Of a stretch of DNA of 64,000 nt, positions 516 through 15,568 are shown piece by piece. Below the pieces are notes generated by a model. That model was not told where the DNA came from, made no database searches, and was given only the letters and a program-made list of their open reading frames with translations. Numbering within the stretch: the stretch's first letter is position 1; the number at the start of each line of letters is the position of its first letter. Made by a program: the position numbers and the translations under genes. The stretch is from Rickettsiales bacterium (lineage in GTDB: Bacteria; Pseudomonadota; Alphaproteobacteria; Methylaequorales; Methylaequoraceae): contig NZFP01000009.1 of assembly GCA_002689325.1 (NCBI GenBank), forward strand, positions 2,587 to 66,586. The letters are read 5' to 3'.

Positions 516-1334
516 CTATTTTAATTCTTCAATTTCAGAAATTTTAAAGTAAAATTTTATTTTTGTCAATTTAGGTTCAGCATTTAATATGCTACCATCA
601 AGGCATTCATTTTCGCTCATTTTTCCTGGCTCAAAGTAGCCGGAAAATTTAACAAAAGTTGCCTCTTTTTCATCCAAATCCCAAAGGCCTGAGGGTTTAA
701 AATTCAGAACTTTATCAATGAGTTTACTATCTAAATCAATATCCCTAACTAGATTACCAAAATCGTTAATATGAATTCTTATTCCAACATCTCCATTGTC
801 AGATGCCCAAACATCTTTAACAACTCCTACCCAATCTTTTTTTGGTTCATAAGCATTAAATTCATTACTGGAACATAATTCTTTGTTTGCTTGAATCCAC
901 AGATATTTTGCTTTGGCAGAATTGACGGCTTGCAAAACTTTCTTATTTGTCGATGAAATTAAATTATTGAGAAATTTTTGATCTGGAGGAGCAAGGTTGT
1001 ATCCAAATTGTTGATTATTATTTAACGAGGGCAGAGGCTTTTGTTGAAATACTACTTCCTTTTTAACTTTATCAATTTCTGTATTTTTTCTTTTATTAAT
1101 TTTTCCTTTAGATATGTTTGTTAAATTTAATTTTTCTAAACAGAACTTACATACATTACTTTCACTCCAATCCCTTACAGAGGAATAGTTTTTTAAGTGA
1201 TCAAGTCTTTGATCAGTTTTGCAAGTTAAAAATTTGACTAAAGAATCTTTTTTTAAATAATCAGTATTGCATTGATTTGCAGATGAGTCTGAGAATAAAA
1301 ATAAAAAAATAAAAAAAAATGAAAAGGTAATCAT
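516..1334 (-). CDS. exported hypothetical protein (N-terminal signal peptide)
   Basis: 272-aa ORF. Hydrophobic N-terminus MITFSFFFIFLFLFSDSSA followed by a polar, Cys-containing mature region. No recognisable catalytic motif. Confidence 0.5.
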   Translation of the reverse strand: MITFSFFFIFLFLFSDSSANQCNTDYLKKDSLVKFLTCKTDQRLDHLKNYSSVRDWSESNVCKFCLEKLNLTNISKGKINKRKNTEIDKVKKEVVFQQKPLPSLNNNQQFGYNLAPPDQKFLNNLISSTNKKVLQAVNSAKAKYLWIQANKELCSSNEFNAYEPKKDWVGVVKDVWASDNGDVGIRIHINDFGNLVRDIDLDSKLIDKVLNFKPSGLWDLDEKEATFVKFSGYFEPGKMSENECLDGSILNAEPKLTKIKFYFKISEIEELK

Positions 1335-1483: not shown

Positions 1484-3478
1484 ATGAATAATATTAATAC
1501 TGCTCTACAAAGAGAAAGACAAAAATATAAGGTCCGAACTTTTTATTTATTAGGCTTTATTGGATGTATCTCGATCTTTGTATATTTTTTTTTACTACTT
1601 TCAAATGGCACGAAAATAATTATTTTACCTGAAGAGGCAAGTAAAAATGCAAAGGTAAAATCTGAGAGTTTTTTCGACCTAAGTTTTAATAATTTTATTT
1701 ATTCTTTTAGTTCAAAACCTGTTTTTTCTGTATCATCAAAAGGGTATAAAAAAATCCAAGAAACCATTACACATGAAAACAAAGGTAAATTTCATGAGGT
1801 TTTAATGACCGAACTCCCGGGAATTTTAAATGTGAACATTAATAATAAAAATGAAAATACCCAATGGTTTTTGGATGAGAAATTTATTTTTCAAGGGGAA
1901 AAGTTAGAAATAAGCTTGCCCGCCGGACAATACAATTTAGCAGTTAATAACCCTTTTTTTGAGAAAAAAAATACGAATGTCATTATTGAAAAAGGGGAAC
2001 CTAACAACCTGGATTTAGAACTAAATAATATTAACAGTTTTATAAAAATTGATTCAGAGCCAACTAATGCAACTGTATTTATTAACAAAAAAAAAATTGG
2101 ACAAACCCCAATGATTTTTAAAGATCAAGGTGGTAAGTACATGATTGAAGTTAAAAAAGAGAATTACGAAAAAATTAATGAGACAATAATTATTACAAAT
2201 CAAAATAAAGTAAATCAAAGAAACTATATCTTGGAGCTCATCGAGGCTAAATTAAAAGTCACTACAAAACCAAAAGGAGGAAATTTAAATATCAATGGTT
2301 TGGTTTATCAAACAGATAAATTTATCAATCTTAAATCTAATAAGGAATATATTGTTTCATATGAAAAAGCTGGTTTTAAAAAAAAATCGCTTAATTTAAA
2401 TTTAAAGCCTAATGAAGAAAGAACTGAGACTATTAATTTGGAAGAAGAATATGGTATTGTTGAAATTATTTCTAAACCAAAAGCAGAAATTTGGATTAAT
2501 GAAAAATTATCAGGCCAAACTCCTAAACTGGTTGAGTTAAGAACTATTCAACAGACCATTGAAGTTAGAAAAAAAAACTTCAGGTCTGTGACTAACAAAA
2601 TTTTACCAAAAGCAGATAAAAAGAAGGTTTTAAATATTAGTCTTATTGATGAAAAGACGGCAAGATTGCAAGAGGCAAAATCCTCTTACAATAATTCTAT
2701 TAATATTGAAATGAAATTATTTAACCCAAAAGGCGACATGTTGCAATTAGGTGCTAAACGTCATGAAAAAGGTCAAAGAGCTAATGAAATTTTACGAAAA
2801 GTTAATCTAACCAAACCTTTTTATGTCTCTTTACATGAAGTATCAAATGAAAATTTTACCAATTTTAAAAAAAAGCAATTATCTGGAAATGGAAGTTTTC
2901 CTATAAGCAACATCTCTTGGATCGAAGCTGCAGCTTTCTGCAATTGGTTAAGTAAAAAAGAAAAACTTGAAGAATTTTATGTCATTAAAGGTGGCAAATT
3001 AATTGATTTTAAAGGAAATTCCAATGGATATAGATTACTAACTGAGGCTGAATGGGAGTGGTTGTCAAGAAAAGCAAATAAGAAAAAAGCCAGTAAATTT
3101 AGTTGGGGTGATAGCTTTATAATTCCAGACAATTATCTTAATATTGCCGATGAAAGTGCTCAAAGCAATCAAAGGAACTTTGTAAAAGATTATGATGATG
3201 GTTATGAAAATCTTGCAGAAATTGGGAGTTTCAATAAGGAAAAATCTGGGCTATATGATTTATCAGGTAATCTTAGTGAATGGGTTCATGATTATTATAC
3301 AGTTACTTTCTCCGACAAAATAGAAAAAGATCCATTAGGTAAAAAAAAGGGATCTAGTCATGTAATCAAAGGTGCAAATTGGAGTTCTGGTACATTAACA
3401 AAAATTAGGCCTAGTTATAGAGAAAATGGTATAAAGGGAAATGAGACAACTGGTTTTAGAATAGCAAGATATTTATGA
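1484..3478 (+). CDS. membrane-anchored protein with ~4 PEGA-like beta-sandwich repeats and a C-terminal FGE/SUMF1-fold (formylglycine-generating-enzyme-like) domain lacking the catalytic Cys pair
   Basis: 664 aa. N-terminal TM (FYLLGFIGCISIFVYFFLLL). Repeated segments of the type TNATVFINKKKIGQTPMIF...KYMIEVKKENYE and AEIWINEKLSGQTPKLVEL...IEVRKKNFRS are PEGA-like. C-terminus (ISWIEAAAFCNWLS...GYRLLTEAEWEW...YDLSGNLSEWVHD...GANWSS...GFRIARY) matches the FGE-sulfatase fold. There is no Cys in the region where FGE has its catalytic CxxxxC. Confidence 0.7.
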   Translation: MNNINTALQRERQKYKVRTFYLLGFIGCISIFVYFFLLLSNGTKIIILPEEASKNAKVKSESFFDLSFNNFIYSFSSKPVFSVSSKGYKKIQETITHENKGKFHEVLMTELPGILNVNINNKNENTQWFLDEKFIFQGEKLEISLPAGQYNLAVNNPFFEKKNTNVIIEKGEPNNLDLELNNINSFIKIDSEPTNATVFINKKKIGQTPMIFKDQGGKYMIEVKKENYEKINETIIITNQNKVNQRNYILELIEAKLKVTTKPKGGNLNINGLVYQTDKFINLKSNKEYIVSYEKAGFKKKSLNLNLKPNEERTETINLEEEYGIVEIISKPKAEIWINEKLSGQTPKLVELRTIQQTIEVRKKNFRSVTNKILPKADKKKVLNISLIDEKTARLQEAKSSYNNSINIEMKLFNPKGDMLQLGAKRHEKGQRANEILRKVNLTKPFYVSLHEVSNENFTNFKKKQLSGNGSFPISNISWIEAAAFCNWLSKKEKLEEFYVIKGGKLIDFKGNSNGYRLLTEAEWEWLSRKANKKKASKFSWGDSFIIPDNYLNIADESAQSNQRNFVKDYDDGYENLAEIGSFNKEKSGLYDLSGNLSEWVHDYYTVTFSDKIEKDPLGKKKGSSHVIKGANWSSGTLTKIRPSYRENGIKGNETTGFRIARYL

Positions 3479-3531
3479 ACTTTAAAAAAAAAATAATAAT
3501 TTTTGTCATATTAATTTTTACATGTCTTATA

Positions 3532-3540
3532 TGTTATAAT
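3532..3540 (+). promoter_or_regulatory. possible extended -10 element (TGtTATAAT) upstream of the MotA/ExbB-like gene
   Basis: tgttataat at 3532-3540, 66 bp upstream of ATG 3606. The -35 is weak. In an AT-rich genome such matches occur by chance, hence low confidence. Confidence 0.2.
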
Positions 3541-3560
3541 ATTATTGAGGCTGGAGGCCT

Positions 3561-3593
3561 GAGTATTTCGTTAAATACTCCAATTTCTTTTCC
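3561..3593 (+). terminator. perfect 8-bp hairpin (gagtattt-cgtt-aaatactc) followed by T-rich tract; terminator/attenuator-like element between FGE-fold gene and MotA-like gene
   Basis: Inverted repeat 3561-3568/3573-3580 with 4-nt loop, then caatttcttttcc. It lies 13 nt before ATG 3606. Confidence 0.3.
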
Positions 3594-3605
3594 AGTTGAT
3601 ATTTA

Positions 3606-4361
3606 ATGAATAATATACTCAAGAACTCTCTATTTTTAATTTTTACAGTCATTATTGTGCATTTTATTTTTTCAGGTTTTATAAGACCTGAAGCGAATTT
3701 GATAATTGAAACAGCTAAGAACACACAAACATCAGTACCTAGAAATTTCTATATTATTGTAAAAGACCTTGAACAGGAAATTTGTTTCATATTGTTAATT
3801 TGGGGAGTTTTTTTAATACTTCAAAAATGTCTTAAAATTATCAATTCAAACTATCTTTTTAATATTGACCTTATTGAAAGACAAATTGAAACTAAAAAAA
3901 CGGCAGAAGAAGTCATTAGCAAATTAAATAATCAGCTTGATAAAAATCTTCAAGAAACCCCTCTTATCGAATCTATAAATCTTGCATTACTTAGATACTC
4001 TCAAACAAAAAATGTTCAAAATGTTTCAGATTCTATTAAAAGTAGTATTGAAATGCTCTCAACAAAACAAGATAGTGATAACGCAATGATTAGATATTTG
4101 ATATGGGCTATACCTTCTGTTGGTTTTATTGGAACTGTCAGAGGCATTGGATTAGCATTGTCAAATGCTGATAAGGCAATTGCGGGTAATATTTCATTAA
4201 TGACTGAAAATTTAGGAATAGCTTTTAATTCAACTTTTGTTGCATTAATCATTAGTCTAATTTTAATGCTTTTTTTCCATCAACTACAAAAGCTACAAGA
4301 TGAAAATTTAGTTGATATTCAAGAATATTGTGAAAAATATCTTTATTCTAAGTTCGTATAA
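3606..4361 (+). CDS. MotA/TolQ/ExbB-family proton-channel protein
   Basis: 251 aa. Four predicted TM helices in a 2 + cytoplasmic loop + 2 arrangement. TM3 carries the family signature IWAIPSVGFIGTVRGIGLAL (compare ExbB/TolQ GLLGTVxGI). Confidence 0.7.
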   Translation: MNNILKNSLFLIFTVIIVHFIFSGFIRPEANLIIETAKNTQTSVPRNFYIIVKDLEQEICFILLIWGVFLILQKCLKIINSNYLFNIDLIERQIETKKTAEEVISKLNNQLDKNLQETPLIESINLALLRYSQTKNVQNVSDSIKSSIEMLSTKQDSDNAMIRYLIWAIPSVGFIGTVRGIGLALSNADKAIAGNISLMTENLGIAFNSTFVALIISLILMLFFHQLQKLQDENLVDIQEYCEKYLYSKFV

Positions 4362-4364
4362 ATT

Positions 4365-5435
4365 ATGAAAAAGAAAGAACGTAACAATGATTTTAGCTTA
4401 TCATTTTTAGACATTATGGCATGCGGTTTAGGCGGAGTAATAATAATTTTTTTATTACTAGATAATAAACCTAATTCTATAATTACTGAATCAAAAACAA
4501 ATAATGAAATACTAATTGAGGAGATTGAGAGCCTTTCTAATTCGAATCTAGAACTAAGCACTGCTAATCAGCAATTAGAATTAAATATAGAAAATGAAAA
4601 AAACAAATTATCAACTATTGATAAACAAAACGAAACTCTAGAAAAAAAGATCAAAGACATTGATAAAACTTCCGAAGAAATCAATAAAGAAGTTTCTCAA
4701 TTGAAAGAAAAAATATCTAAGATGCCTCAGGAAATTATTGAAGATCCTATTTCAAATGATGAATTGTTTGAAGAAAATTATATTGAGGGTCTTAGAATAG
4801 TAGGGAAAAAAATTTGTATATTACTTGATTCTAGTTCATCAATGACAGATGAAAAATTATTAGAAATTATCAAAAGGAAGAATTTATCTGACGAAGAAAA
4901 AAAAAAAGGTCCAAAGTGGAAGAGAAGTTTAGATATTGTAAAGTGGGTTTTAGCTAGAGCACCAAAAGAGAGTAATATTGCTGTAATAAGGTTCAGTGAA
5001 ACAGCAAAATATATTGCCAAAGAATCCTTCCAAACCAAAAATAAGAATGATTTAAAAACAATTTTTTTAGGTTTAAATAATATAATCCCCAACGGGCCAA
5101 CTAATTTGTTATCTGCTTTAATACAAGCGGCAAAATTTAAGCCAACCAATATTTATCTAATTACAGATGGATTACCAACTTTTGGTGGAGAAAGATTTAA
5201 AAGTTTAAATCCATTTAATAAATGTGATTCTATTATTGGTTCCTCAAATAAAATATCTGGTGAATGTAGAGTAAAATTATTTAATCAAAGTATAAAATAT
5301 GTAAGTAATAATGGAGCAAAAATAGATATAATTCTCCTACCCGTGGAAGGTGATCCCCAAGCCTCTCCTGAGATGTGGAAATGGGCCTCTGACACAGGTG
5401 GTATATTAATCAGCCCAGCAAAAAATTGGCCATAA
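4365..5435 (+). CDS. ExbD/TolR/MotB-like single-pass anchor fused to coiled coil and von Willebrand factor A domain (paralogue 1)
   Basis: 356 aa. N-terminal TM FSLSFLDIMACGLGGVIIIFLLL with Asp at the ExbD/TolR position. Heptad-rich segment (SLSNSNLELSTANQQLELNIENEKNKL...). vWA with MIDAS DSSSSM ... ITDGLPT. Starts 3 nt after the upstream gene. Confidence 0.6.
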   Translation: MKKKERNNDFSLSFLDIMACGLGGVIIIFLLLDNKPNSIITESKTNNEILIEEIESLSNSNLELSTANQQLELNIENEKNKLSTIDKQNETLEKKIKDIDKTSEEINKEVSQLKEKISKMPQEIIEDPISNDELFEENYIEGLRIVGKKICILLDSSSSMTDEKLLEIIKRKNLSDEEKKKGPKWKRSLDIVKWVLARAPKESNIAVIRFSETAKYIAKESFQTKNKNDLKTIFLGLNNIIPNGPTNLLSALIQAAKFKPTNIYLITDGLPTFGGERFKSLNPFNKCDSIIGSSNKISGECRVKLFNQSIKYVSNNGAKIDIILLPVEGDPQASPEMWKWASDTGGILISPAKNWP

Positions 5436-6370
5436 TGAAAAAAAAAAGGAATTTAGAAAATACACTTTTTTCATTCTTAGATGTTATATCATGTGGGTTT
5501 GGGGCTATTGTCATGTTGGTGTTAATTTACAAATTTAATCCCAGTGAAAATATTGAAAATTATGACGAAGATAATGAAAAATACATTATTAAAATAAACG
5601 AATTACAATCAATTAACGATAAATTAAAAATAACTAAAGAGCAATTAACAAATAAACTTTTAGAAATTAATAAAAAATTTTTAGAAATTAATAATTCTAT
5701 ACAAAATAAACAAAATTCACTCACGTCTGTTGAAAAAAAGAAAAAAGATCTTAAAGATTCTGCTGAAGCATTAAAACTTGTTGAGAATAATCTCAAATCC
5801 TTTTCACTAAAAAAGAAGAAAGAAATTGTAAGGGATATTGAGGTTGGTGGAATTCCTGTTGATAGTGACTATATCATTTTTATAGTTGATACATCTGGAA
5901 GCATGTTGACTATTTGGGATAAAGTTTCAAAGAAAATTGAGAATATTTTAAATATTCATCCAAATGTCAAGGGCTTTCAAATATTGAATGATATGGGAGT
6001 TCCTCTCATTTCTGGTTATAAAAACAAATGGATACCAGATACACCAACTTGGCGTAAAAATTCATTAAAGTTATTCAAAATGTGGGTTATTGCCTCAAAT
6101 AGTAGTCCTTTAGAAGGCATTGAATGGGCACTTATTAAATATTCAGATCCTAAAAAATCTGTAGCAATTTATGTCATGGGTGATGATTACACAGGAGGAG
6201 ATTATGATATAGCAATTAATAAAATAACGAATTTAAATAAAAAAAAAAAATTTAAAACAAGAATTCATGCTATTGGTTTTCTTGCTCAAGATACAACAGA
6301 TAGATTTTCAATTATTATGCGTGAAATAACGAAACAAAACAATGGAACCTTTATCGCTTTGCCAAGATAA
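5426..6370 (+). CDS. ExbD/TolR/MotB-like single-pass anchor fused to coiled coil and vWA domain (paralogue 2)
   Basis: 314 aa. TM TLFSFLDVISCGFGAIVMLVLIY with the same Asp. Coiled coil, then vWA with IIFIVDTSGSM ... VMGDDYTGGD. Overlaps the upstream paralogue by 10 nt, consistent with translational coupling. Confidence 0.6.
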   Translation: MAIMKKKRNLENTLFSFLDVISCGFGAIVMLVLIYKFNPSENIENYDEDNEKYIIKINELQSINDKLKITKEQLTNKLLEINKKFLEINNSIQNKQNSLTSVEKKKKDLKDSAEALKLVENNLKSFSLKKKKEIVRDIEVGGIPVDSDYIIFIVDTSGSMLTIWDKVSKKIENILNIHPNVKGFQILNDMGVPLISGYKNKWIPDTPTWRKNSLKLFKMWVIASNSSPLEGIEWALIKYSDPKKSVAIYVMGDDYTGGDYDIAINKITNLNKKKKFKTRIHAIGFLAQDTTDRFSIIMREITKQNNGTFIALPR

Positions 6371-6374
6371 TTTT

Positions 6375-8000
6375 TTATATCTTTTCTGTGCAAATAATTT
6401 TCAATTGAACGGGCTCATTTCCTGTCAAATTGATATCTAAAAAAATATCTCTGAAACCTTTTTTTTTTCCTATAAAATAGTATTCTCCGGGAGGAAGTTG
6501 AATAATTTTTTCTTCAACTTTCCCAACTTTACCAATACCTCTAATTTCTATATAGGTTTCATTGTCTGAAACAATTTTTACATTTATCTTTATTTCAGAT
6601 TTTTTAATAACATCAGAGACCTCAAGATAATTTTTTAAAAGTGATGGACTAATATCTAAGTATTTTTCCGAACTTTTAAGATCACTAAGAACCACGTTCT
6701 TAAATTTTTGATTCGTAAACCTATGTAAGTTTTTCGAATGACTTTTTAAACTTTTTTTTAAAGATAAAATTTCTTCTGTCATTTCAATTTTTTCTCTAAT
6801 AAAAGCATCATTATTTTCTATGTTTTCAATCTTCTTGAGATTGAGTAATGAGGTTTCCCAATCATCATTACTGGACGCAATATTAAAATTAAAAAGTAAA
6901 TCTTTTTTTATTTTTTCTTCTTTAAGTTTATCTAATTTGTCTTCAAATAAATTTATCTCAGGTCTATTTGGTAAAATTTTCTTTGCTTTTATTAAGAAGT
7001 TTTCTGCATCTTTAATATTTCCATCTTTAAAAAACTTTTCTGCTTTATTAATTTTCTTTGCAAATTCTGTTTCAGCTATTGTGAGACTTAAATTTTTTAT
7101 TTCATCATCTAATTTAGGGTTCTTTTCTATTTGACTGAGCTTTTGCATTAAAAGTAATTCTTTTTTTTTATTATTCTCGTTTCTGGCAGTTTCTAAATTT
7201 TCAAGGATTTGAATTTTTTCTGGAAGCACTTTTATCTTGGTTCTTAACTTTTTTGCTTCTTGAACATTAGGTTTTAATTTGAGGGCATTCTTAATGTTTT
7301 CATCTGCTTTTAAATAAGATAAATCCTTGTAAAATGATTTTGCGTTTGAAAAAAAATTATTAAAATCTTCCTCAAGTTTCTTGTTGGTTTTTTTAATTTC
7401 AAGTTCAGTCTTATCAATTTTTTTTATGGCATCAATAAAGTTTCCTTTATTTTTAATTACAGTAATCTCTTTTCTCATATTCTCAATCTTTTCAATATTT
7501 CGTTGAAAATAATTAAAATTCCAAACAAATAATGAATCATAAAAAAATTTTTCAAGTTCAATTTTCTTGTTTAGAAAAACTTCTTTTGCATTTTTTAAAT
7601 TAATATTCTCAGTTTTATTGGATAAACTTTCCAAGTTATCTTTAATTTTATTTCTTTTATTTGTGGTAATATTACTCTCAAAATTTTGACAATTAAATTC
7701 TGTAAAATCATTGTTGATTGTTGACGTTATTTTCTTATTTTTAAAATCAATAATTTCAATTTTATCATTATCCTCAGTTACATAAGTAAGATTTAAATCA
7801 TCAGAAGAAGTAAATTGCTTGCAGTTTTCTTGGTTGGAAGAATTTATCATGCAAATATTATTTTTGAATTTTGTATATTTGGTTAGTTTATTCGCTCCAT
7901 CTATACATTCCATTGTTAACTCATAATTATTTGCTTTAGAAAAAATTTTATTACTAATTAAAGAAATAAGTATAAAAAAAATTATTTTGTGGAATTTCAT
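6375..8000 (-). CDS. exported Lys-rich coiled-coil protein with C-terminal PEGA-like beta domain
   Basis: 541 aa. Signal peptide MKFHKIIFFILISLISNKIFS. Long K/E-rich helical repeats. C-terminus IEIRGIGKVGKVEEKIIQLPPGEYYFIGKKKGFRDIFLDINL resembles a PEGA domain. Confidence 0.5.
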   Translation of the reverse strand: MKFHKIIFFILISLISNKIFSKANNYELTMECIDGANKLTKYTKFKNNICMINSSNQENCKQFTSSDDLNLTYVTEDNDKIEIIDFKNKKITSTINNDFTEFNCQNFESNITTNKRNKIKDNLESLSNKTENINLKNAKEVFLNKKIELEKFFYDSLFVWNFNYFQRNIEKIENMRKEITVIKNKGNFIDAIKKIDKTELEIKKTNKKLEEDFNNFFSNAKSFYKDLSYLKADENIKNALKLKPNVQEAKKLRTKIKVLPEKIQILENLETARNENNKKKELLLMQKLSQIEKNPKLDDEIKNLSLTIAETEFAKKINKAEKFFKDGNIKDAENFLIKAKKILPNRPEINLFEDKLDKLKEEKIKKDLLFNFNIASSNDDWETSLLNLKKIENIENNDAFIREKIEMTEEILSLKKSLKSHSKNLHRFTNQKFKNVVLSDLKSSEKYLDISPSLLKNYLEVSDVIKKSEIKINVKIVSDNETYIEIRGIGKVGKVEEKIIQLPPGEYYFIGKKKGFRDIFLDINLTGNEPVQLKIICTEKI

Positions 8001-8031
8001 CTATTGGCAACAAAAAAAATTGAATTATCAA

Positions 8032-9255
8032 TTAGATAGTAGCTGGGATTTCGCCCTCAGGAGTTTTTTCTTTTTCATATATTTTTTTTAAAAATAATCT
8101 CCACTGCGAAAATTGTTCTTTAGCTGTTCCAGTTAACTCTACAGTATCATTACTCAATTCTATTACTTTAGATGACATCTCTACATCTAATGATTGTCCA
8201 AGTTCGTTGATTGCATCTCTGTGGACTTTAGCTTCTGCACTTTTCTTAAAACTATCTTGTAAAAGTGATGTTCCAGCCATACCACCACCTACAGCACCTA
8301 ATGTGCCAAGGGCTTGACCACCAGCGTCACCTGAATTTGCTCCAGCTACTGCAGCTAGAACTGCAGCACCAAGCAACAAAATTCCTCCAATTGCTTTACC
8401 TACAGCTTCTCCTTTGGCTTTGCTTTCAGCTTGTTTTTCCTGAAATGTCTGTTGCTGCCATGTTAAATAACTTGAATCTATGTTTTCGTCAAAATTCATA
8501 TAAAAAACTTGAAGTTCGTCAATAAATAATTGATCGCGAACTCTTAAATTTGATAATCTAAGATATTTTGGATCAGAACTATCAAGTTTTGTTTTAATGA
8601 TGTACTTTCCATCTTCATTTTTATCAATATTTTCCGAAAAAGATTCTTCAGAGAGATTCATACCGAATCTTAAATCACTAATGTATTTTAAATCATCAAG
8701 GTTTTTGGTAGAAACAAATTGAAGCTTTTCTTCGATTTTTTTGGCAATTTTCTGAAAAACCGGGTCATAAGAATCTTCGTTATAACCCCCTTTAGTGTAG
8801 AAATCTTCTGGCACTTGGTGTTCAAAATCGTCATCAATCCACAAGTTACCTGAAATATCTGCCACTTTAATGTCTAATTCAACTTCTTCACTATTTGATT
8901 CCATAATTTTTCCTGAAATATATAAATCACTTGTCGCGTTCAAGTCAGGAACAACTCTGACAGCCCCAAATTTATCTAACTTTTCAATATGTAGTTTAAG
9001 TTTATATGCGAATCTGATTGATTCAGCTTTTCTTAATTCTTTCCAAACATCTTCGTTATTGGATTTAGGAATATTTGAATCAAATACAGCTATTGCAACA
9101 TCTAGTCTTGGTCTAGAATCATCAGCAAAATCTTGAACTTTTTCTTCCTCAAGAATTTGATTTGAAGTTTTTGGACCAAAGTCCATTAACGACTGTGTTG
9201 TTTTACAACTAGATATAAAAAAAGCTATTAATATAAACAAAGAAGTAAGTCTCAT
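8032..9255 (-). CDS. lipoprotein with glycine-zipper (SlyB/17-kDa-antigen-like) segment
   Basis: 407 aa. Lipobox FFISSC. Segment GKAIGGILLLGAAVLAAVAGANSGDAGGQALGTLGAVGGGMAGTSLL is a classic glycine-zipper membrane motif. Confidence 0.55.
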   Translation of the reverse strand: MRLTSLFILIAFFISSCKTTQSLMDFGPKTSNQILEEEKVQDFADDSRPRLDVAIAVFDSNIPKSNNEDVWKELRKAESIRFAYKLKLHIEKLDKFGAVRVVPDLNATSDLYISGKIMESNSEEVELDIKVADISGNLWIDDDFEHQVPEDFYTKGGYNEDSYDPVFQKIAKKIEEKLQFVSTKNLDDLKYISDLRFGMNLSEESFSENIDKNEDGKYIIKTKLDSSDPKYLRLSNLRVRDQLFIDELQVFYMNFDENIDSSYLTWQQQTFQEKQAESKAKGEAVGKAIGGILLLGAAVLAAVAGANSGDAGGQALGTLGAVGGGMAGTSLLQDSFKKSAEAKVHRDAINELGQSLDVEMSSKVIELSNDTVELTGTAKEQFSQWRLFLKKIYEKEKTPEGEIPATI

Positions 9256-9300
9256 AACTATAATTTCCCAATTAAATTAAATCATAAATTTCATAAAAAC

Positions 9301-9846
9301 TCAATCTTCAAGCGGTAAGTTTTTATACTTTCTATACTCGTTCCAAATTTTTTTTTGCTTTTCGGGGTCTCTTTCTTTAAGTGCAGCGTTCTTTATTTGT
9401 TGAGCTAAAACATCATCATTGTCATCAAAGGGAATATCTTCAGGAATTTTTCCATTTGACCCTGAGTTATTTTTATTTATAGAACCTGCGAGTTCATTTT
9501 CAGTGTCTTGATTTTGTTCATCGTATGACTCAGTTGATTCTTGATCTGCTCTAAATTTATTGCCTCTTAATTCTTGTGATCCATCCGATGCATTTTCTAT
9601 ACTATTGTCAGCATTATTTTGCCTTGCTGATGTTTTTGCTTTTATACACTCTTCAAATCTATCCAAGGACTCGAGTAAAGCATCATCCATCGCCTGAATC
9701 TGCTCTCTGTCTGTTAAATATTCATTTTCTGTATAGTTTACATCAAAATTATCGCACTCATCATTAATAGTTTCAGAATAAGGAGCTTTTCCAACAACAA
9801 AAAAAACAATAAGAAGTAAATGACTTAAAAAAAATTTGTACAACAT
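9301..9846 (-). CDS. exported acidic hypothetical protein
   Basis: 181 aa. Signal peptide MLYKFFLSHLLLIVFFVVG. D/E/N/Q-rich mature part. Confidence 0.45.
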   Translation of the reverse strand: MLYKFFLSHLLLIVFFVVGKAPYSETINDECDNFDVNYTENEYLTDREQIQAMDDALLESLDRFEECIKAKTSARQNNADNSIENASDGSQELRGNKFRADQESTESYDEQNQDTENELAGSINKNNSGSNGKIPEDIPFDDNDDVLAQQIKNAALKERDPEKQKKIWNEYRKYKNLPLED

Positions 9847-10271: not shown

Positions 10272-12761
10272 TTATCCATTTCTCAATAAATAGTATGTAT
10301 TAAAATTTAAGTACTTTCTGTTTGAAATTAATAAAGTTGTTACAAATACCAACATAAATAGAATTAAAATAATCAAAGTAACTGAAATGGGAAAATACCA
10401 ATCGATACTAAAAAAATTTGTTATAAAAAAGTAGGAAAATACAATTGAAAATATTAACGAAGAAATAACTATAGGTATAAATAATATGAGAGTTTCAAAT
10501 ATTATCAGTTTATAAATATTTAATTTCTCAAAACCCAGAATTCTTAAAACAAGATTTTGATAAACTTTAAGATTTCCGATTACACTTATAGCATTTGATA
10601 TCACAATGAGTCCAATTAGAATTACCACTAGTGATATCAAAATACTCACAATAAATATGCCATTTAAAAAATTTTTTGTTTTGTTTATATACTCAGATAA
10701 CTTTATGTAGGTTATATTTGGTAATTTTCTTAATATATTACTTAAGTTTACCAATTCCTCATTTTCAAATTTTATAGTAGACATAAATTCATGAGGAATT
10801 TTTGATGCATATTTAGGATTAAATAAAATTGCAAAATTAATGTTTAAGTCCCTATAATCTACTTTTCTAAAATTTGTAATGATTCCTGTAACTGAATTAC
10901 CAAAAATATTAAATGTCATCGAATCACCAATTTTTAATTTTAGATCATTAGCGACTTTGTAATCTAAAGAAAGTTGTAATTTATTTATTTCATCTTTATC
11001 CCACCATTTACCTTTAATAACTGGATTATTGAATGGAGGGTTTTTTGACCAAGATATTCTTCTCTCACCGTTAATAAACCAAAAACTTTTATTTTTTTCA
11101 TCTATTAATTCTCTTGGATTTCTATTATTTATAGTTTCTATTCTTGCAGATATCATAGGTACAACTATTTGTTTTGCTTTAAAATCAATTTCATAAATTT
11201 GCTCCTTAAATAATTTCAATTGATTTTCCTGTATTCCTAAAAAAAAATAATGTGGGGCATTCTTTGGTATCGAAGTATTAAGTTCTTTATTGATATTAGA
11301 AGACAACATTCCAAGAAAGAATAATGTGGTCATTCCCAATCCCATGGTTACTATCATAATAGTATTTAGACTACGATAAGCTTTCAGATTTTTAATCCCC
11401 ATGTTAAGAAGTAAATTTTTTATGTTTTTCATTTTACCCAAAATCAAAATGTAGAATTTAGATAAAAAATAATAGAAAAAACTAATAATTATAAAAAAGA
11501 AAAAAAATACTGCTGTTTGTTGAGGTTTTACATTTAAAATACAAAAAAAGAAAACGAAAATTATCAGCAAAACACTAATTTCTATAAATGATTTTCTAGT
11601 ATAATTTAAATTTAATTGAGTGCTGCTATTTCTAAATAGATTTGTAACTTTAATTTGATCGATACTATCTACCACAGGTTTGGCAAATATAAAAAAGACT
11701 ATAATACTAAAGAATTGAATAATTAAGTATTCAGTAATTTTAAATTTTACCTTTAACTCAATATTTAGAAAGTTTAAAAAACTATGATCTAGAAAAAAAA
11801 TTATTAACAAACCTAAAGTATAAGCTATTAGAGAACAGAAAATCAAAATCACAATAGTTTGTGTGTAGTATATGGTTTTAATATTATTGGAACTTAATCC
11901 CAAAGATTTATAAATAGCAATATTAAACTGATTATTACTAAGAAATGAATAAAGTGAGTTTTTTAAACCAACTCCTGAAATTAGGATAGCTGACGCTGCA
12001 ATAATGGTGAGAAAATAAATAAAATTCTCAATAGTTCTTTTTAGATTCTGACTAACGTCTTCTGGAGTCTTAATTATAATTTTCTTATTTTCATTAATTT
12101 TTTTTGATAATTTTGAATTATTTTCCTTTTTTATCATTTTATATTTAAAATTTATAAAAGTTCCAAGATTATTGACTTTTAAATTCTTAAAGCCTGATTT
12201 GTTAATTAAAGCTTGATCTCCAAAAAGAAAAAAACCTCCAATATCCGGTAAACTTTCAATTACACCTATAACCTCAAATGAAACATTTTGTATTCTTATT
12301 TTCTCACCGATTTTTAAATTAAGATTATTTTTGGTTGTTTTATCAACCAAAATAGCATTGGATGTTGTTTTAAGTAATCTAAGTGAATTTGCAGGTTCAA
12401 CTTTTACATTTCCAAGAAGTGGATAAAAATTATCTATTACTTTTATTCTTGTTGTTTTGCTTTCCTCATTTATAGTTCTTATAATAGACGTAAACTCAAT
12501 AACCTCCGTCATTAAGAATTTATCTTTTAATTCGTCTATAAATTCATCATTTAAATCTGTGTTTTTTGTAGATAGCTCTAAATCACCTCCAAGAAAAACT
12601 CTTGCATTATCTTTAATTTCATTTTCAATACTATTTTTTAAAATTGTTACTGAAGAGAAAATTAGCAAACTGATAAATATTGTAAAAAATACTTTTGAGA
12701 TTTTTTCTTTATTCTTATAAAATTCTTTTATTAAAAATTGAAAATTTTTAGGAAAATACAT
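10272..12761 (-). CDS. ABC transporter permease, FtsX family (YbbP/LolE-like, two FtsX repeats)
   Basis: 829 aa polytopic protein. Same operon as an ABC ATPase (ATGA-type junction at 12761-12764). Confidence 0.8.
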   Translation of the reverse strand: MYFPKNFQFLIKEFYKNKEKISKVFFTIFISLLIFSSVTILKNSIENEIKDNARVFLGGDLELSTKNTDLNDEFIDELKDKFLMTEVIEFTSIIRTINEESKTTRIKVIDNFYPLLGNVKVEPANSLRLLKTTSNAILVDKTTKNNLNLKIGEKIRIQNVSFEVIGVIESLPDIGGFFLFGDQALINKSGFKNLKVNNLGTFINFKYKMIKKENNSKLSKKINENKKIIIKTPEDVSQNLKRTIENFIYFLTIIAASAILISGVGLKNSLYSFLSNNQFNIAIYKSLGLSSNNIKTIYYTQTIVILIFCSLIAYTLGLLIIFFLDHSFLNFLNIELKVKFKITEYLIIQFFSIIVFFIFAKPVVDSIDQIKVTNLFRNSSTQLNLNYTRKSFIEISVLLIIFVFFFCILNVKPQQTAVFFFFFIIISFFYYFLSKFYILILGKMKNIKNLLLNMGIKNLKAYRSLNTIMIVTMGLGMTTLFFLGMLSSNINKELNTSIPKNAPHYFFLGIQENQLKLFKEQIYEIDFKAKQIVVPMISARIETINNRNPRELIDEKNKSFWFINGERRISWSKNPPFNNPVIKGKWWDKDEINKLQLSLDYKVANDLKLKIGDSMTFNIFGNSVTGIITNFRKVDYRDLNINFAILFNPKYASKIPHEFMSTIKFENEELVNLSNILRKLPNITYIKLSEYINKTKNFLNGIFIVSILISLVVILIGLIVISNAISVIGNLKVYQNLVLRILGFEKLNIYKLIIFETLILFIPIVISSLIFSIVFSYFFITNFFSIDWYFPISVTLIILILFMLVFVTTLLISNRKYLNFNTYYLLRNG

Positions 12762-12763
12762 AA

Positions 12764-13432
12764 TTAATTTCTTATTTCACCATCTAATAAATTTATAATC
12801 CTATCGCACTTTTTTGCTAAATTAATATTATGAGTTACTAAAAATAAACTGATTTTTTTTTTTTTGGAGTAATTTATTAGTAAATTTGAAACTAGTTCTG
12901 TATTTTTTCTATCTAGATTACCAGTAGGTTCATCTGCTAGAATAACTTCTGGGTTAAACGAAATTGCCCTAGCGATTGCGACTCTTTGTTGCTCTCCACC
13001 TGATAACTCAGAAGGTAAATTATTTTTTCGTTTCTCTAAACCAATGTCAGAGAGAATCAAATTAGCTTTTTCTTTTTCATTTTTAATTTTATTTATTTGC
13101 ATAGGAAACATGACATTTTCAAGAGCTGTATAATTTGGTATTAGGTAAAATTGCTGAAACACTAACCCAATTTTTTTTTTTCGTATTACGGTTTTTTGTT
13201 CCTCGCTTATTACAGAAAAATTTTTATTTTCAAAAAAAACTGATCCTGTTGAAGGTTTTTCTAGACCAGACATAAGCATCAAAAGACTTGTTTTTCCAGA
13301 ACCGCTTTCACCGACTAAAGCTACTCTCTCATTTTTTTTTAATTCAAAATTTATATTTTTCAAAACTCTGATATCATTCCCATTCACATTGTAATTAAGA
13401 TTAATGTTATCTAGTTTATATAGTTTTTTCAT
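12764..13432 (-). CDS. ABC transporter ATP-binding protein (YbbA/LolD-like)
   Basis: Walker [13 protein letters not shown] signature [14 protein letters not shown]. Walker [11 protein letters not shown]. Confidence 0.85.
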
Positions 13433-14045
13433 TTTAAGATTTCTTGTTATATTGATAGTTGGTCTAAACTTTATACCAACAAAAGTGTATTGTAACCAAA
13501 AAATTGCATTGTTTGGTGATAGCTTAATGTCTGGTTATGGACTTGAAAAAAAATTTCATCTATCAACTATTTTAGAAAAAAATCTTAAACAAAAAGGATT
13601 TGATGTAAATGTCATTAATGCCAGCGTATCTGGAGACACCACATCTGGTGGACTAAATAGATTAAATTGGTTACTTAAAAAAAAAGATATAGATATTGTT
13701 GTAGTATGCCTTGGAGCAAATGATATGTTGAGAGGAATTAAACCCTCTCTAATAAAACAAAATTTAAATAAAATCCTGCACATTTTGCAAGAAAGAAACA
13801 CAACCATTCTTCTAGCCGGCATGCTATCTCAAGAAGCATTGGGAAACGAATATAAAAATAAATTTGATAGCATTTATCCTGAGCTTGCAAAAAAATTTCA
13901 GATTTCTTTTTTGCCATTTTTATTAGATGGTGTTGCTCTAAACGCTGAATTAAATTTAAGTGATGGAAAACATCCTAACCAAGAAGGAATTAAAATAATA
14001 AGTAAAAATCTTGAAAAAAAACTAAATGATATTCTTCAAAATTAA
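13404..14045 (+). CDS. SGNH/GDSL hydrolase, TesA-like (arylesterase / thioesterase I family)
   Basis: GDSL block IALFGDSLMSGYG. C-terminal DGKHPN (Dxx H) block. Signal-peptide-like N-terminus. Divergent from the ABC pair, as in the tesA-ybbA-ybbP arrangement. Confidence 0.8.
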   Translation: MLSSLYSFFILRFLVILIVGLNFIPTKVYCNQKIALFGDSLMSGYGLEKKFHLSTILEKNLKQKGFDVNVINASVSGDTTSGGLNRLNWLLKKKDIDIVVVCLGANDMLRGIKPSLIKQNLNKILHILQERNTTILLAGMLSQEALGNEYKNKFDSIYPELAKKFQISFLPFLLDGVALNAELNLSDGKHPNQEGIKIISKNLEKKLNDILQN

Positions 14046-14183: not shown

Positions 14184-15407
14184 CTAGTAGAGAGCTACCA
14201 ACCTTTTAGATAAATTATTTTTATCAAGTTTTTTAAATAAATTAATAAGTTGATGTATTGTTTTAGATGAATGACTAATGCTCTTTAAAGCTGCAGATAA
14301 TACTTCTACATAGCTATTAATCGTTAATTTTTTATTATCCTCGAATAGTTGACACACAAGAAGAAAATCTGTCAAAGATATAAAAAAAATCATTACTCTG
14401 ATGAAATTGTTTAATGAATTCTTAGAATTCATTATATTATCAATATTTTTTAAAAATTCATTAATAAAGTAGTTTTTAAAAATAAAATCATTCTCTTTTC
14501 TAAATTTATTGAATTTTGTATTGTAAATATAAGTAAATTGTTTAACAAATGTTGTTTTAGGTAAAAATAAATAGTCACTTTTTAAAGCTGATTTTTTACA
14601 GATTTTCCTAAACCTTGAATCTCTGAATTCGCCTTTACTATCAGCAAGACCATTAGAGCTTTGACTTCCCGATTTATTACTGCTAACCAATTTGGAAAAA
14701 CAGAATGATGCCAAAATATTTATATCCGTATGAAGTAAGTCTTTTTTTATTTTCTCATTTTCATTTTTTAAAAAATTATTTACAGAACATTCACTACTAT
14801 TTATTTTATCATAGGAAATTATTATCTGTTTAAGAGTTTCGAAAATGTTACTATAGTCATTTATTTTAAAAAATACTTCTTCTATAAATTTTAATTTTTT
14901 ATCAGATAATTTTTTTTTAGTTTGAAGTGAAAAAACATTATGAGAATTAAAAATATTTGGTAATTTTTTTTTTTTTAATGTTTTAATGTTTAAATCTTTT
15001 TTACTTAAGCATAATCGAGCAATTTCAGGGCATGACAATGAACCTGAAATAAAACCTATTTTATCAAATATTGTTATTTCCCTGGGATAAGTTGAGCAAC
15101 CAATTGATAAACTTTCTTGTCCCATTAACTTAAATGCATTGCATAGTTTATCCTTAGTTAAAAAAGGGCAACAATTATTTTCGTTTACTAACTTTCCGTA
15201 ATTAATATTTGACTTTAGATCGTCTTTAATCAGCGACCTTTGAGAAATTGATTTTATTTCTTTAATAGTTGAATTTTTATATTTTTTATATGTTGCTTTA
15301 TCAATTTTTATATTCCAACCCACACAACAAGAATCAATGCAGTCTTTTCCTATACATTTGAAATCTTGTATATATTCGGGAACAAAAAAATTCTGGTTTG
15401 TTTGCAT
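14184..15407 (-). CDS. FliB-like (flagellin lysine-N-methylase family) Cys-cluster protein
   Basis: 407 aa. N-terminal FKCIGKDCIDSCCVGWNIKIDKATYKKY fits the C-x4-C-x3-CC-GW...DK pattern recalled for FliB family proteins, and the length is comparable. Recognition is from memory of the family motif only. Confidence 0.4.
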   Translation of the reverse strand: MQTNQNFFVPEYIQDFKCIGKDCIDSCCVGWNIKIDKATYKKYKNSTIKEIKSISQRSLIKDDLKSNINYGKLVNENNCCPFLTKDKLCNAFKLMGQESLSIGCSTYPREITIFDKIGFISGSLSCPEIARLCLSKKDLNIKTLKKKKLPNIFNSHNVFSLQTKKKLSDKKLKFIEEVFFKINDYSNIFETLKQIIISYDKINSSECSVNNFLKNENEKIKKDLLHTDINILASFCFSKLVSSNKSGSQSSNGLADSKGEFRDSRFRKICKKSALKSDYLFLPKTTFVKQFTYIYNTKFNKFRKENDFIFKNYFINEFLKNIDNIMNSKNSLNNFIRVMIFFISLTDFLLVCQLFEDNKKLTINSYVEVLSAALKSISHSSKTIHQLINLFKKLDKNNLSKRLVALY

Positions 15408-15544
15408 GGTAACTAATTATTTCGCAATATTAGTGCCAATAATGATAAGTAAAAAACTTTATTTTAATAGTTATTATTTTGAAAAAAAGTTTGATAGAAA
15501 AATTTTATTTATTTAAATTAATCACTTCTAATCAAATGAAAGCA

Positions 15545-15568
15545 ATTGAAAATCCTTTGAACTTTCAT
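15545..15568 (+). repeat. tRNA 3'-end-like element copy C (short, degenerate)
   Basis: attgaaaatcctttgaactttcat matches copies A and B over aaatcc(g/t)ttgaact. Confidence 0.35.

What the first reader, a model, noticed from the sequence alone, without database searches (positions are those of the whole stretch)
1484..6370. Candidate undescribed proton-channel 'stator' module: ExbB/MotA-like protein plus two ExbD/TolR-like anchors whose periplasmic part is coiled coil + vWA, with a PEGA/FGE-fold partner
Seen in sequence: 3606-4361 has the MotA/TolQ/ExbB topology and the GFIGTVRGI signature. The next two genes are tightly coupled to it (3-nt gap, then a 10-nt overlap). Each begins with a single TM helix carrying Asp at the ExbD/TolR/MotB position (FLDIMACGLG, FLDVISCGFG). 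Where those families carry a periplasmic TonB/Tol or peptidoglycan-binding domain, these proteins instead carry about 100 residues of heptad-rich helix and a complete vWA domain with an intact MIDAS motif (DSSSSM...TDG; DTSGSM...GDD). Established knowledge: MotAB, ExbBD, TolQR, AglRQS, GldLM and ZorAB are 5:2 PMF-driven motors in which the B subunit's conserved Asp is the proton acceptor. AglRQS uses two different TolR-like subunits. The gliding/T9SS motor GldLM works with FGE-fold lipoproteins (GldJ/GldK). Inference: this is a one ExbB-like plus two different ExbD-like arrangement with metal-dependent vWA adhesion heads, neighboured by an FGE-fold protein, so it is probably a distinct envelope energy-transducing machine. 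The host appears to be non-flagellated and poor in TonB receptors, so the function is open (surface remodelling, vesicle or S-layer handling, particle attachment).
Basis: partly seen in the sequence, partly recalled or inferred. Interest (0 to 1): 0.85.

Follow-up and report, generated by a model that had tools for sequence, protein, structure and literature searches.

The report
TolQ-like motor with vWA-headed axles
This is a real, widely conserved operon that probably builds a proton-driven membrane motor whose two axle proteins end in metal-dependent adhesion (vWA) heads. The motor core was already predicted in a 2025 paper, the operon has eight genes rather than four, and what it does is still unknown.

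Summary
3606-4361 encodes a TolQ/ExbB/MotA-family protein: Pfam PF01618 E=1.8e-12, and the best 50 listed fold matches (of 220) are subunits of solved 5:2 motors. The next two genes are paralogues (hhalign 99.6%). Each has an N-in transmembrane helix with an invariant Asp, about 90-100 residues that look like coiled coil, and a vWA domain with invariant metal-binding (MIDAS) residues.

"Undescribed" does not hold. Mol Biol Evol 2025 (PMC12204202, Fig. 4c-d) already describes tolQ-like genes paired with two different vWA proteins. Those proteins carry a TolR-like trans-pore helix with the Asp, and no tolR/exbD gene is present.

In 44 of 50 fully flanked loci from at least three phyla, seven genes are syntenic. 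An eighth sits in the supposed 127-nt gap before the motor gene: a 43-codon ORF (3475-3606) ending in a near-invariant ISLNSPxSFPVDI.

The other partners are a non-catalytic PEGA/FGE-fold membrane protein, a TPR protein, a small acidic secreted protein and a lipoprotein. The lipoprotein's fold resembles outer-membrane lipoproteins, several of them ring-forming (PelC, CsgG, TraT, a flagellar LPHT-ring protein). In this window's lineage three of the genes are inverted downstream.

Best reading: a proton-driven trans-envelope force transducer. Its function is untested.

The parts
1484..3478 (+). Gene A. Bitopic inner-membrane protein: N-terminal transmembrane helix (nt 1538-1603), then PEGA-type beta-sandwich repeats (about nt 1871-2653), then a non-catalytic FGE-sulfatase-fold domain (nt 2729-3469).
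   Evidence: Pfam FGE-sulfatase 5e-30 and PEGA 1e-24. One hydrophobic helix at residues 22-40. Only one conserved Cys (C486), so no FGE catalytic pair. Nearest solved chains are T. denticola variable protein 1, FGE enzymes and PorK. Syntenic in 76 loci.
3475..3606 (+). 43-aa micro-protein MNFKKKIIIFVILIFTCLICYNIIEAGGLSISLNTPISFPVDI. It has a basic, hydrophobic N-terminus that looks like a signal peptide, followed by a near-invariant C-terminal 13-mer (nt 3565-3603). ATGA overlap with A's stop; TAATG overlap with B's start.
   Evidence: A motif scan found it in 74 of the 85 loci searched (the window was scanned as well). Reading the translated gap by eye showed it in eight of the other eleven; two more loci have no sequence upstream of B, and in the last (L039) the stop codon is lost. 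L-11 is conserved in 76/77 unique tails; P-4, D-2 and I-1 in 77/77. Codon-position entropy is 0.56/0.24/1.48 bits. Gene callers call it with these exact ends as 'hypothetical protein'. No Pfam or NCBIfam family.
3606..4361 (+). Gene B. TolQ/ExbB/MotA-family channel subunit, presumed to form the pentamer. Thr177 (nt 4134-4136) and Thr210 (nt 4233-4235) are the putative lumen Thr ring; Pro170 is at nt 4113-4115.
   Evidence: PF01618 at 47.6 bits against a cut-off of 22.9. Invariant GTVRGI and NST motifs. AF2 model pLDDT 74.9; Foldseek's best 50 listed matches (of 220) are all A-subunits of solved 5:2 motors, with TolQ/ExbB best at TM 0.6-0.67.
4365..5435 (+). Gene C (vWA-1). Trans-pore helix (nt 4392-4460) with Asp16 (nt 4410-4412) and Cys20. 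Coiled-coil-like region, about residues 40-130. vWA domain (nt 4806-5432) with MIDAS D155/S157/S159/T246/D268 and Cys287/Cys301.
   Evidence: The family comprises 296 clusters (50% identity) at E<=1e-30.
5435..6370 (+). Gene D (vWA-2), a paralogue of C. Probable start is ATG 5435; the ORF tool's TTG at 5426 is the alternative. Residues below use TTG numbering. Trans-pore helix (nt 5462-5530) with Asp19 (nt 5480-5482) and Cys23. Coiled-coil-like region. Divergent vWA domain (nt 5867-6367) with D155/S157/S159/D253.
   Evidence: hhalign C vs D 99.6%. Invariant residues. Start codon.
6375..8000 (-). Gene E. Secreted TPR-repeat protein with a PEGA-like C-terminal beta domain. Convergent with D, 4 nt apart.
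   Evidence: 27% identical to the gene upstream of A in Desulfobulbaceae. TPR hits in homologues of ordinary GC content. C-terminal 70 aa vs the PEGA repeats of A: hhalign 71% and 48%. Syntenic in 72 loci.
8032..9255 (-). Gene F. Lipoprotein (lipobox ISSC, Cys17), probably of the outer membrane. It has an alpha/beta domain, a long helix and a Gly-zipper hydrophobic hairpin (residues about 288-334).
9301..9846 (-). Gene G. Small secreted acidic protein (39 D+E against 21 K+R) with two conserved Cys and a conserved C-terminal motif.
   Evidence: First gene of the operon in 44 of 50 fully flanked loci, and in divergent form in 5 more.

Best explanation
The window carries one copy of a self-contained eight-gene envelope operon. 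Its usual order is G-F-E-A-x-B-C-D; here G-F-E is inverted and lies downstream.

The core is a proton-motive-force-driven motor of the 5:2 class. B would form the TolQ/ExbB-like pentameric channel. One C and one D would insert their N-terminal helices into its lumen as a heterodimeric axle. Asp16 (C) and Asp19 (D) would take up and release protons against the Thr177/Thr210 ring of B.

C and D have no ExbD/TolR or peptidoglycan-binding domain. Each continues as about 90-100 residues that look like coiled coil, roughly 12-14 nm if paired, and ends in a periplasmic vWA head with a complete metal-binding (MIDAS) site. Ion flow would turn or pull this stalk, and the heads would pass the work to a periplasmic and outer-membrane scaffold.

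That scaffold would be made of:
- A, an inner-membrane-anchored protein with PEGA repeats and a non-catalytic FGE fold;
- E, a TPR protein with a PEGA-like end;
- F, a lipoprotein whose fold resembles outer-membrane lipoproteins, several of them ring-forming, with a Gly-zipper hairpin;
- G, a small acidic protein;
- x, a micro-protein with an invariant ...FPVDI end.

Shown here: domain identities, invariant residues, paralogy of C and D, periplasmic orientation, eight-gene synteny, and that x is coding.

Inferred: 5:2 stoichiometry, C/D heterodimer, rotation, which partner the MIDAS sites bind, and the biological output. My best guess for the output is mechanical work on an outer-membrane complex, in the manner of Tol-Pal or Ton.
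For: B belongs to the family.
- Pfam places it in PF01618.
- Foldseek's best 50 listed matches (of 220) are all A-subunits of 5:2 motors.
- The GTVRGI and NST threonines are invariant.

C and D look like axle subunits.
- The FLD(I/V)xxCG(L/F)G helix is invariant in both.
- They are paralogues at 99.6%.
- The Asp-to-MIDAS spacing is held to 134-143 residues in C and 134-138 in D across 43 loci.
- N-termini are basic and C has an invariant Cys pair.
- No ExbD/TolR/MotB gene occurs in any of the 85 loci.

The genes are tightly coupled. Median gaps are E-A -14, C-D -4 and B-C +10. x overlaps A's stop in many loci (ATGA in the window) and ends at or within 1-2 nt of B's start.

The unit is conserved. 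All seven larger genes are present in 44 of 50 fully flanked loci. Five more have a divergent G. The loci span Pseudomonadota, Desulfobacterota and Binatota. No other neighbour is conserved.

F has an outer-membrane-lipoprotein fold.

Independent support comes from PMC12204202. It reports AlphaFold 3 models of the tolQ-like pentamer with two such vWA proteins, with the Asp pair inside the Thr ring.
Against: - There are no experimental data for any member.
- The helices of C and D show no profile-detectable similarity to ExbD, TolR or MotB.
- B matches solved motors only at fold level. By sequence the best PDB match is E=0.05.
- I could not run a multimer model, so stoichiometry and heterodimer rest on analogy and on the cited paper.
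- No plug or peptidoglycan anchor is visible, so what holds the unit still is unknown.
- D's vWA domain is below Pfam's threshold.
- C and D were not modelled here. Their coiled coil rests on weak matches to coiled-coil families and chains.
- I did not directly check that this family is the same as the paper's Idiomarina seed family.
Confidence: 0.7

Rival explanations
1. It is an export or assembly apparatus, for a polymer or for the operon's own secreted products (x, G). E (TPR) and F (PelC/CsgG/TraT-like lipoprotein) would form the outer-membrane conduit, as PelB and PelC do. The motor would supply energy to it.
For: F's best fold matches include PelC dodecamers, CsgG and TraT, all outer-membrane ring or pore formers. 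E is a TPR protein. x and G have signal-peptide-like N-termini. GGDEF genes lie nearby in about 10 loci.
Against: The operon has no glycosyltransferase, polymerase, beta-barrel or ATPase, and no such gene is a conserved neighbour. The GGDEF association is weak, at 10 of 85 loci. F's hairpin region is modelled with low confidence.
Confidence: 0.15
2. It is not a motor. C and D would be membrane-anchored vWA scaffolds of the BatA/BatB kind. B would be a TolQ-like protein working with another partner, and the membrane Asp would serve helix packing or metal binding.
For: The helices have no detectable homology to ExbD, TolR or MotB. Bacterial vWA proteins with N-terminal anchors are common (my own recollection).
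Against: Asp, Cys and the Gly residues of the helix are invariant in both paralogues across phyla. B is always immediately upstream with a gap of 6-16 nt, and no other B-type subunit is ever present. No MoxR or DUF58 partner typical of Bat operons is present, and there was no BatA Pfam hit.
Confidence: 0.1
3. It is an anti-phage defence system of the Zorya kind: a MotAB-like sensor in the envelope that triggers an effector.
For: It has a ZorAB-like 5:2 core. Its taxonomic distribution is patchy and its flanking genes vary.
Against: PADLOC gave no credible defence-family match. B and D had no match at all, and the few matches to A, C and F were at E>=0.002. B is 251 aa and lacks the long cytoplasmic tail of ZorA. 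No cytoplasmic effector, nuclease or ATPase is present, and every partner is an envelope protein. It is absent from the plasmid and phage collections. It is kept in small, AT-rich genomes.
Confidence: 0.04

Closest known systems
TPH-vWA / tolQ-like clusters predicted in silico in 'Origin and Evolution of Bacterial Periplasmic Force Transducers' (Mol Biol Evol 2025, PMC12204202, section 8, Fig. 4c-d)
   Same: A tolQ-like gene is followed by a heterologous pair of vWA proteins. Their N-terminal helix carries the conserved Asp, and no tolR/exbD gene is present. The clusters are found in Proteobacteria. The paper predicts that the helices sit inside the pentamer.
   Different: The paper describes only the motor gene and the vWA pair. 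It does not mention A, x, E, F or G. I could not align the window's proteins with the paper's Idiomarina seed, because its sequences are not in the held text.
TolQ-TolR(-TolA) and ExbB-ExbD(-TonB)
   Same: These are B's closest solved folds (TM 0.6-0.67). The GTVxG and second-helix threonines are shared. Each has a single-pass partner with a membrane Asp, encoded directly downstream. Both are used to energise outer-membrane processes.
   Different: Two different B-type subunits replace the homodimer. Their periplasmic part is coiled coil plus vWA, not the TolR/ExbD domain. There is no TolA/TonB-type third subunit with an SHLS motif. B has an extra N-terminal hydrophobic helix. There is no profile-level homology of the helices.
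AglR-AglQ-AglS gliding motor of Myxococcus
   Same: One A-type subunit works with two different TolR-like subunits. A vWA protein (CglB) is part of that machine.
   Different: AglQ and AglS are short TolR-like proteins without vWA heads. CglB is a separate outer-membrane lipoprotein. There are no Glt genes here.
GldLM with the GldK/PorK ring (T9SS)
   Same: A proton-driven motor whose B-type subunit reaches far into the periplasm, working with an FGE-fold protein.
   Different: A is not a GldK/PorK orthologue (60.8 bits against a cut-off of 350), and it is helix-anchored rather than a lipoprotein. There is no GldL, GldM, GldN or Sov.
ZorAB (Zorya)
   Same: A non-flagellar 5:2 MotAB-like unit.
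   Different: There is no credible PADLOC match, no ZorA tail, no peptidoglycan-binding ZorB domain and no ZorC/D effectors.

Membership tests
MotA/TolQ/ExbB proton-channel family (PF01618), gene B | Profile match above the curated threshold | tested here: met
   47.6 bits against 22.9, residues 130-237. Homologues carry PF01618.
MotA/TolQ/ExbB proton-channel family (PF01618), gene B | Conserved threonines in the last two transmembrane helices (TolQ T145/T178 equivalents) and the GxxGTVxG motif | tested here: met
   T177 and T210 are invariant, and P170 nearly so, in 43 and 36 sequences. The equivalence to the TolQ residues is by motif, recalled from the literature and from PMC12204202.
MotA/TolQ/ExbB proton-channel family (PF01618), gene B | Fold of a 5:2 motor A-subunit | tested here: met
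   Foldseek's best 50 listed matches (of 220) are all TolQ, ExbB, PomA, MotA or ZorA chains. The best are TolQ/ExbB at TM 0.6-0.67.
MotA/TolQ/ExbB proton-channel family (PF01618), gene B | Pentamer enclosing two B-type helices | not testable with these tools
   No multimer prediction was available. An AlphaFold 3 model is reported in PMC12204202.
ExbD/TolR (PF02472) or MotB, genes C and D | Single N-in transmembrane helix with a conserved Asp, encoded directly after the A-subunit gene | tested here: met
   D16 (C) and D19 (D) are invariant. N-termini are basic. B-C gap is 3 nt and C-D overlap 1 nt.
ExbD/TolR (PF02472) or MotB, genes C and D | Sequence homology to the family profile | tested here: not met
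   No PF02472 or MotB hit for the full proteins or for the N-terminal 44-46 aa at E<=10. A 40-column helix profile finds no PDB chain at E<=10.
ExbD/TolR (PF02472) or MotB, genes C and D | Periplasmic ExbD/TolR fold or OmpA-like peptidoglycan-binding domain | tested here: not met
   The periplasmic part is coiled-coil-like plus vWA.
TPH-vWA motor clusters of PMC12204202 | tolQ-like gene, heterologous pair of vWA proteins with an Asp-bearing trans-pore helix, and no tolR/exbD | tested here: met
   compared with the paper's text.
TPH-vWA motor clusters of PMC12204202 | Homology to the paper's Idiomarina loihiensis seed proteins | not tested
   The seed sequences are not in the held text or supplements. 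Alteromonadales relatives do carry the module.
vWA domain with MIDAS, genes C and D | Profile match and the DxSxS...T...D metal site | tested here: met
   C: VWA_2 at 28.5 against 27, with D155/S157/S159/T246/D268 invariant. D: Pfam is sub-threshold (E 0.019, or 0.0026 in a homologue), but hhalign to C is 99.6% and D155/S157/S159/D253 are invariant, with Ser in place of Thr.
Formylglycine-generating enzyme, gene A | Catalytic Cys pair in the FGE domain | tested here: not met
   Only one Cys is conserved in the family (C486, 88%). The region aligned with the catalytic loop has none. The position of the catalytic pair is from memory of FGE structures.
GldK/PorK (TIGR03525), gene A | Equivalog score and a lipoprotein signal | tested here: not met
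   60.8 bits against a cut-off of 350. A has an N-terminal transmembrane helix and no lipobox.
Zorya ZorAB | Match to ZorA/ZorB models and presence of ZorC/D | tested here: not met
   PADLOC gave no Zor match. B and D had no match at all. There are no cytoplasmic partner genes.

The most novel reading that the evidence does not exclude
The eight genes build a separate kind of proton-driven trans-envelope machine, alongside Ton, Tol-Pal, the flagellar stator, T9SS and gliding motors.

In this reading a heterodimeric coiled-coil axle carries two MIDAS heads. The heads grip an acidic ligand supplied by the operon itself. The best candidate is the invariant Asp-Ile carboxy-terminus of the exported micro-protein x.

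The LNSPxS core of x also resembles the sulfatase motif LCTPSR that FGE domains bind. If so, x could bridge the vWA heads to the non-catalytic FGE domain of A. The motor would then pull on a scaffold at the outer membrane containing the lipoprotein F.
Probability: 0.3. Interest if true: 0.8.

Novelty: new member of a known kind. Interest (0 to 1): 0.55.

Why it matters
5:2 ion-driven motors power flagella, nutrient import, outer-membrane integrity, gliding, type IX secretion and phage defence. Each newly understood output has opened a field.

This module is found in at least 590 species genomes. It is kept even in a small, AT-rich marine alphaproteobacterial genome and is absent from the plasmid and phage collections searched. 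It is therefore probably a housekeeping envelope function that nobody has assayed.

The practical gain here is a complete parts list. There are eight genes, including an overlooked 43-codon gene and a probable outer-membrane lipoprotein. The work also identifies cultured hosts: Magnetovibrio blakemorei, Sneathiella, Alteromonas sediminis and Glaciecola. This turns a published structural prediction into a system that can be tested genetically.

Tried and rejected
- Zorya or another defence system: PADLOC found nothing credible.
- Bat-type aerotolerance operon: no BatA, MoxR or DUF58.
- T9SS relationship: A matches GldK/PorK only at fold level.
- Active FGE enzyme: no catalytic Cys pair.
- Sequence homology of the helix to ExbD, TolR or MotB: two profile searches found nothing.
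- A regulatory RNA or terminator in the A-B gap: rejected. Rfam finds nothing there. The gap is coding, with codon-periodic variation.
- Promoter and terminator scans gave no more hits than shuffled sequence in this AT-rich DNA.
- Co-variation of C and D stalk lengths as a test of heterodimer formation: uninformative, because both lengths hardly vary.
- Extra conserved neighbours: none. An ABC ATPase, a GGDEF protein and a sigma-54 regulator each occur in 9-13 of 85 loci at variable positions.
- Five literature searches for the full gene combination found only PMC12204202.
- The afdb50 fold library was unavailable.
- A crude AxA cleavage-site finder for x was unreliable, because it picked sites inside the motif.

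Full report
**1. Observation**

- A (1484-3478) has an N-terminal hydrophobic helix, three PEGA repeats (E=1e-24) and an FGE-sulfatase domain (E=5e-30).
- B (3606-4361) matches MotA_ExbB (PF01618) at 47.6 bits against a gathering score of 22.9.
- C (4365-5435) passes the VWA_2 threshold, 28.5 against 27.
- D gets only a sub-threshold vWA hit (E=0.019). However, a profile-profile comparison of the C and D families gives 99.6% probability (E=4e-24). It covers the N-terminal helix, the coiled-coil region and the first two-thirds of the vWA domain. D is therefore a diverged paralogue of C.

The B-C gap is 3 nt, as stated. The C-D '10-nt overlap' assumes a TTG start. Gene callers in near-identical genomes call a 311-aa product, which corresponds to the ATG at 5435. 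That gives a TAATG one-base overlap.

**2. Conservation of the critical residues**

- C, 26 sequences down to 40% identity. The helix motif FLDIMxCGLG is invariant, including Asp16. So are the MIDAS residues D155, S157, S159, T246 and D268, and a Cys pair (C287, C301).
- D, 43 sequences. L18, D19, C23 and F25 of the helix are invariant, as are D155, S157, S159 and D253.
- B. T177 (in GTVRGI) and T210 (in NST) are invariant, and P170 nearly so.

Both C and D start with a run of Lys/Arg before the helix. With the Cys pair in C, this places the vWA heads in the periplasm.

The distance from the membrane Asp to the first MIDAS Asp is 134-143 residues in C and 134-138 in D across 43 loci. The two stalks are thus kept at nearly equal length.

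C and D were not modelled here. The coiled-coil assignment rests on weak matches of residues about 35-135 to coiled-coil families and chains.

**3. What B is**

An AlphaFold2 model built with 36 homologues has mean pLDDT 74.9. In the PDB, Foldseek's best 50 listed matches (of 220) are all A-subunits of solved 5:2 motors. TolQ and ExbB come first (TM-score up to 0.67), then PomA, MotA and ZorA.

By sequence alone B is far from anything solved. The best match is B. subtilis MotA at E=0.05.

B has four hydrophobic helices. This is one more than I recall for TolQ and ExbB, because of an extra N-terminal helix.

**4. What C and D are not**

They do not match the ExbD/TolR Pfam model, either as whole proteins or as isolated N-termini. 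A 40-column profile of the helix finds no PDB chain at E<=10.

Their likeness to ExbD, TolR or MotB is therefore one of topology, a membrane Asp, and position directly after the channel gene. It is not demonstrable homology.

The helix has its own signature, F-L-D-[IV]-x-x-C-G-[LF]-G. An invariant Cys lies one turn after the Asp.

**5. The unit is eight genes, not four**

B homologues of 55-58% identity occur in Desulfobulbaceae. Their contigs show the order [409 aa][473 aa][PEGA-FGE][MotA-like][about 350 aa][315 aa].

The 409-aa protein is 49% identical to the window's 8032-9255 (-) product. The 473-aa protein is 27% identical to 6375-8000 (-).

I compared eight window proteins with the six-frame ORFs of 85 loci.

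- Of 50 loci with full flanks, 44 have G-F-E-A-B-C-D on one strand.
- Five more have F-E-A-B-C-D with a G too diverged for my query; a separate family sits in G's place.
- One is cut by a contig end.

Carriers include Alpha-, Beta-, Gamma- and Zetaproteobacteria, Desulfobacterota and Binatota. No other gene family is a consistent neighbour. The module is absent from the plasmid and phage collections.

In the window's lineage the G-F-E block is inverted and lies downstream of D, convergent with it and 4 nt from its stop. This lineage comprises three assemblies (GCA_902622235, GCA_902537615, GCA_902526055) whose B protein is 98% identical (the rest of the module 66-96%), and a Rickettsiales MAG.

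**6. The eighth gene**

The A-B spacer has a median of 149 nt in 76 loci. It encodes a short protein ending in ...ISLNSP(A/T/V)SFPVDI.

In the window it runs from 3475 to 3606 (43 aa). It overlaps A's stop (ATGA) and B's start (TAATG).

A motif scan found it in 74 of the 85 loci searched; the window was scanned as well. By eye it is also present in eight of the eleven others; two more have no sequence upstream of B. In the last, L039 (Binatia), the stop codon is lost and the peptide is extended.

Among 77 unique tails, L(-11) is conserved in 76, and P(-4), D(-2) and I(-1) in all 77.

Across 70 distinct DNA versions of the last 13 codons, entropy is 0.56, 0.24 and 1.48 bits at codon positions 1, 2 and 3. 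That is the signature of a translated sequence.

Gene callers predict exactly these ends and name it 'hypothetical protein'. No Pfam or NCBIfam model matches.

The N-terminal part is basic then hydrophobic and poorly conserved. It often ends in AxA-like triplets (AYA, AIA, VYA) 13-20 residues from the C-terminus. A cleaved signal peptide releasing a very short periplasmic peptide is therefore plausible. I could not run a dedicated predictor, and a signal anchor is not excluded.

**7. The other partners**

- E is a TPR protein in homologues of ordinary GC content. Its last 70 residues resemble the PEGA repeats of A (hhalign 71% and 48%).
- F has a lipobox (Cys17) and belongs to no Pfam family. 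Its AlphaFold2 model (pLDDT 75.8, pTM 0.74) has a confident alpha/beta domain, a long helix and a low-confidence Gly-zipper hairpin.
- G is small, acidic and secreted, with two conserved Cys.
- A lacks the Cys pair that FGE enzymes need; only C486 is conserved. Its nearest solved relatives are a Treponema surface protein, FGE enzymes and PorK, all through the shared fold only. It scores 60.8 bits against a GldK cut-off of 350.

**8. Literature**

- they co-occur tightly with tolQ homologues;
- no tolR/exbD genes are present;
- they are 'predominantly found in heterologous pairs';
- they carry a TolR/ExbD-like trans-pore helix with the conserved Asp;
- in AlphaFold 3 models the Asp pair sits inside the Thr ring of the pentamer.

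The paper gives no function and does not mention A, x, E, F or G. Five further full-text searches found nothing else on this gene set.

I could not compare sequences with the paper's Idiomarina seed. Identity of the two families is thus very likely but formally untested.

**9. Mechanism**

The most economical reading is a 5:2 proton-driven unit, B5 with a C-D heterodimer. Its axle extends as a paired coiled coil of roughly 12-14 nm, carrying two MIDAS heads towards the outer membrane. There, A, E, F, G and x would form the partner structure.

The domains, invariant residues, topology and synteny are shown here. The stoichiometry, the rotation, the ligand of the MIDAS sites and the physiological output are inferred.

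One speculative lead concerns x. Its invariant Asp-Ile C-terminus would suit MIDAS coordination. Its LNSPxS core also recalls the C/S-x-P-x-R sulfatase motif that FGE folds bind (my recollection of the FGE literature). The extended x in L039 argues against a strict need for a free C-terminus.

**10. Verdict**

The feature is real, ancient and conserved, and it remains uncharacterised by experiment. The claim of novelty for the motor core fails. The module's true extent, including the overlooked micro-protein and the probable outer-membrane lipoprotein, is new in the literature I could search.

Noticed in passing
window 3475-3606 (+): The 'intergenic' gap between A and B is a conserved 43-codon gene ending in ISLNTPISFPVDI. 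It overlaps A's stop and B's start.
   Followed up: yes
window 6375-9846 (-), compared with L001-L082: In most lineages G-F-E lies upstream of A on the same strand. In this window, in L003 and in L083-L085, the block is inverted and placed after D, 4 nt from D's stop. L004 (SAG AG-337-B08) also lacks G-F-E upstream. I did not look for repeats or other scars of the rearrangement.
   Followed up: partly
window 4410-4424 and 5480-5494: Both trans-pore helices have an invariant Cys exactly four residues after the Asp (D-x-x-x-C), followed by G-x-G. I do not recall this signature in ExbD, TolR or MotB. Its role (metal, disulfide or packing) is unknown.
   Followed up: partly
L039:7909-8114 (Binatia MAG): Here the small gene x has no stop after ...FPVDI and reads on for 17 more codons. 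Six other Binatia loci have the normal stop. This is either a sequencing error or a real exception to a free C-terminus.
   Followed up: no
L031:7814-8172 and L032:599-862: In two loci the A-B spacer is enlarged by tandem repeats. L031 has about 70-nt units after x. L032 has repeated MNKRIMNKNT-coding units before x.
   Followed up: no
window 516-1334 (-): A 272-aa secreted, Cys-containing protein with no Pfam family lies divergent from A. It is conserved only in the closest relatives (53-54% in L083-L085) and is not part of the module elsewhere.
   Followed up: partly
window 10272-14045: A MacB/FtsX-type ABC permease (829 aa), its ATPase and a GDSL lipase lie next to gene G. The same neighbours occur in L083-L085 but not in other lineages.
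   Followed up: partly
window 14184-16715 (-): Two ORFs of 407 and 376 aa have no Pfam match at E<=0.001.
   Followed up: no
loci L001, L026 and about 8 others: GGDEF-domain genes lie within a few kb of the module in about 10 of 85 loci, at variable positions. This is a weak hint of a link to c-di-GMP.
   Followed up: partly
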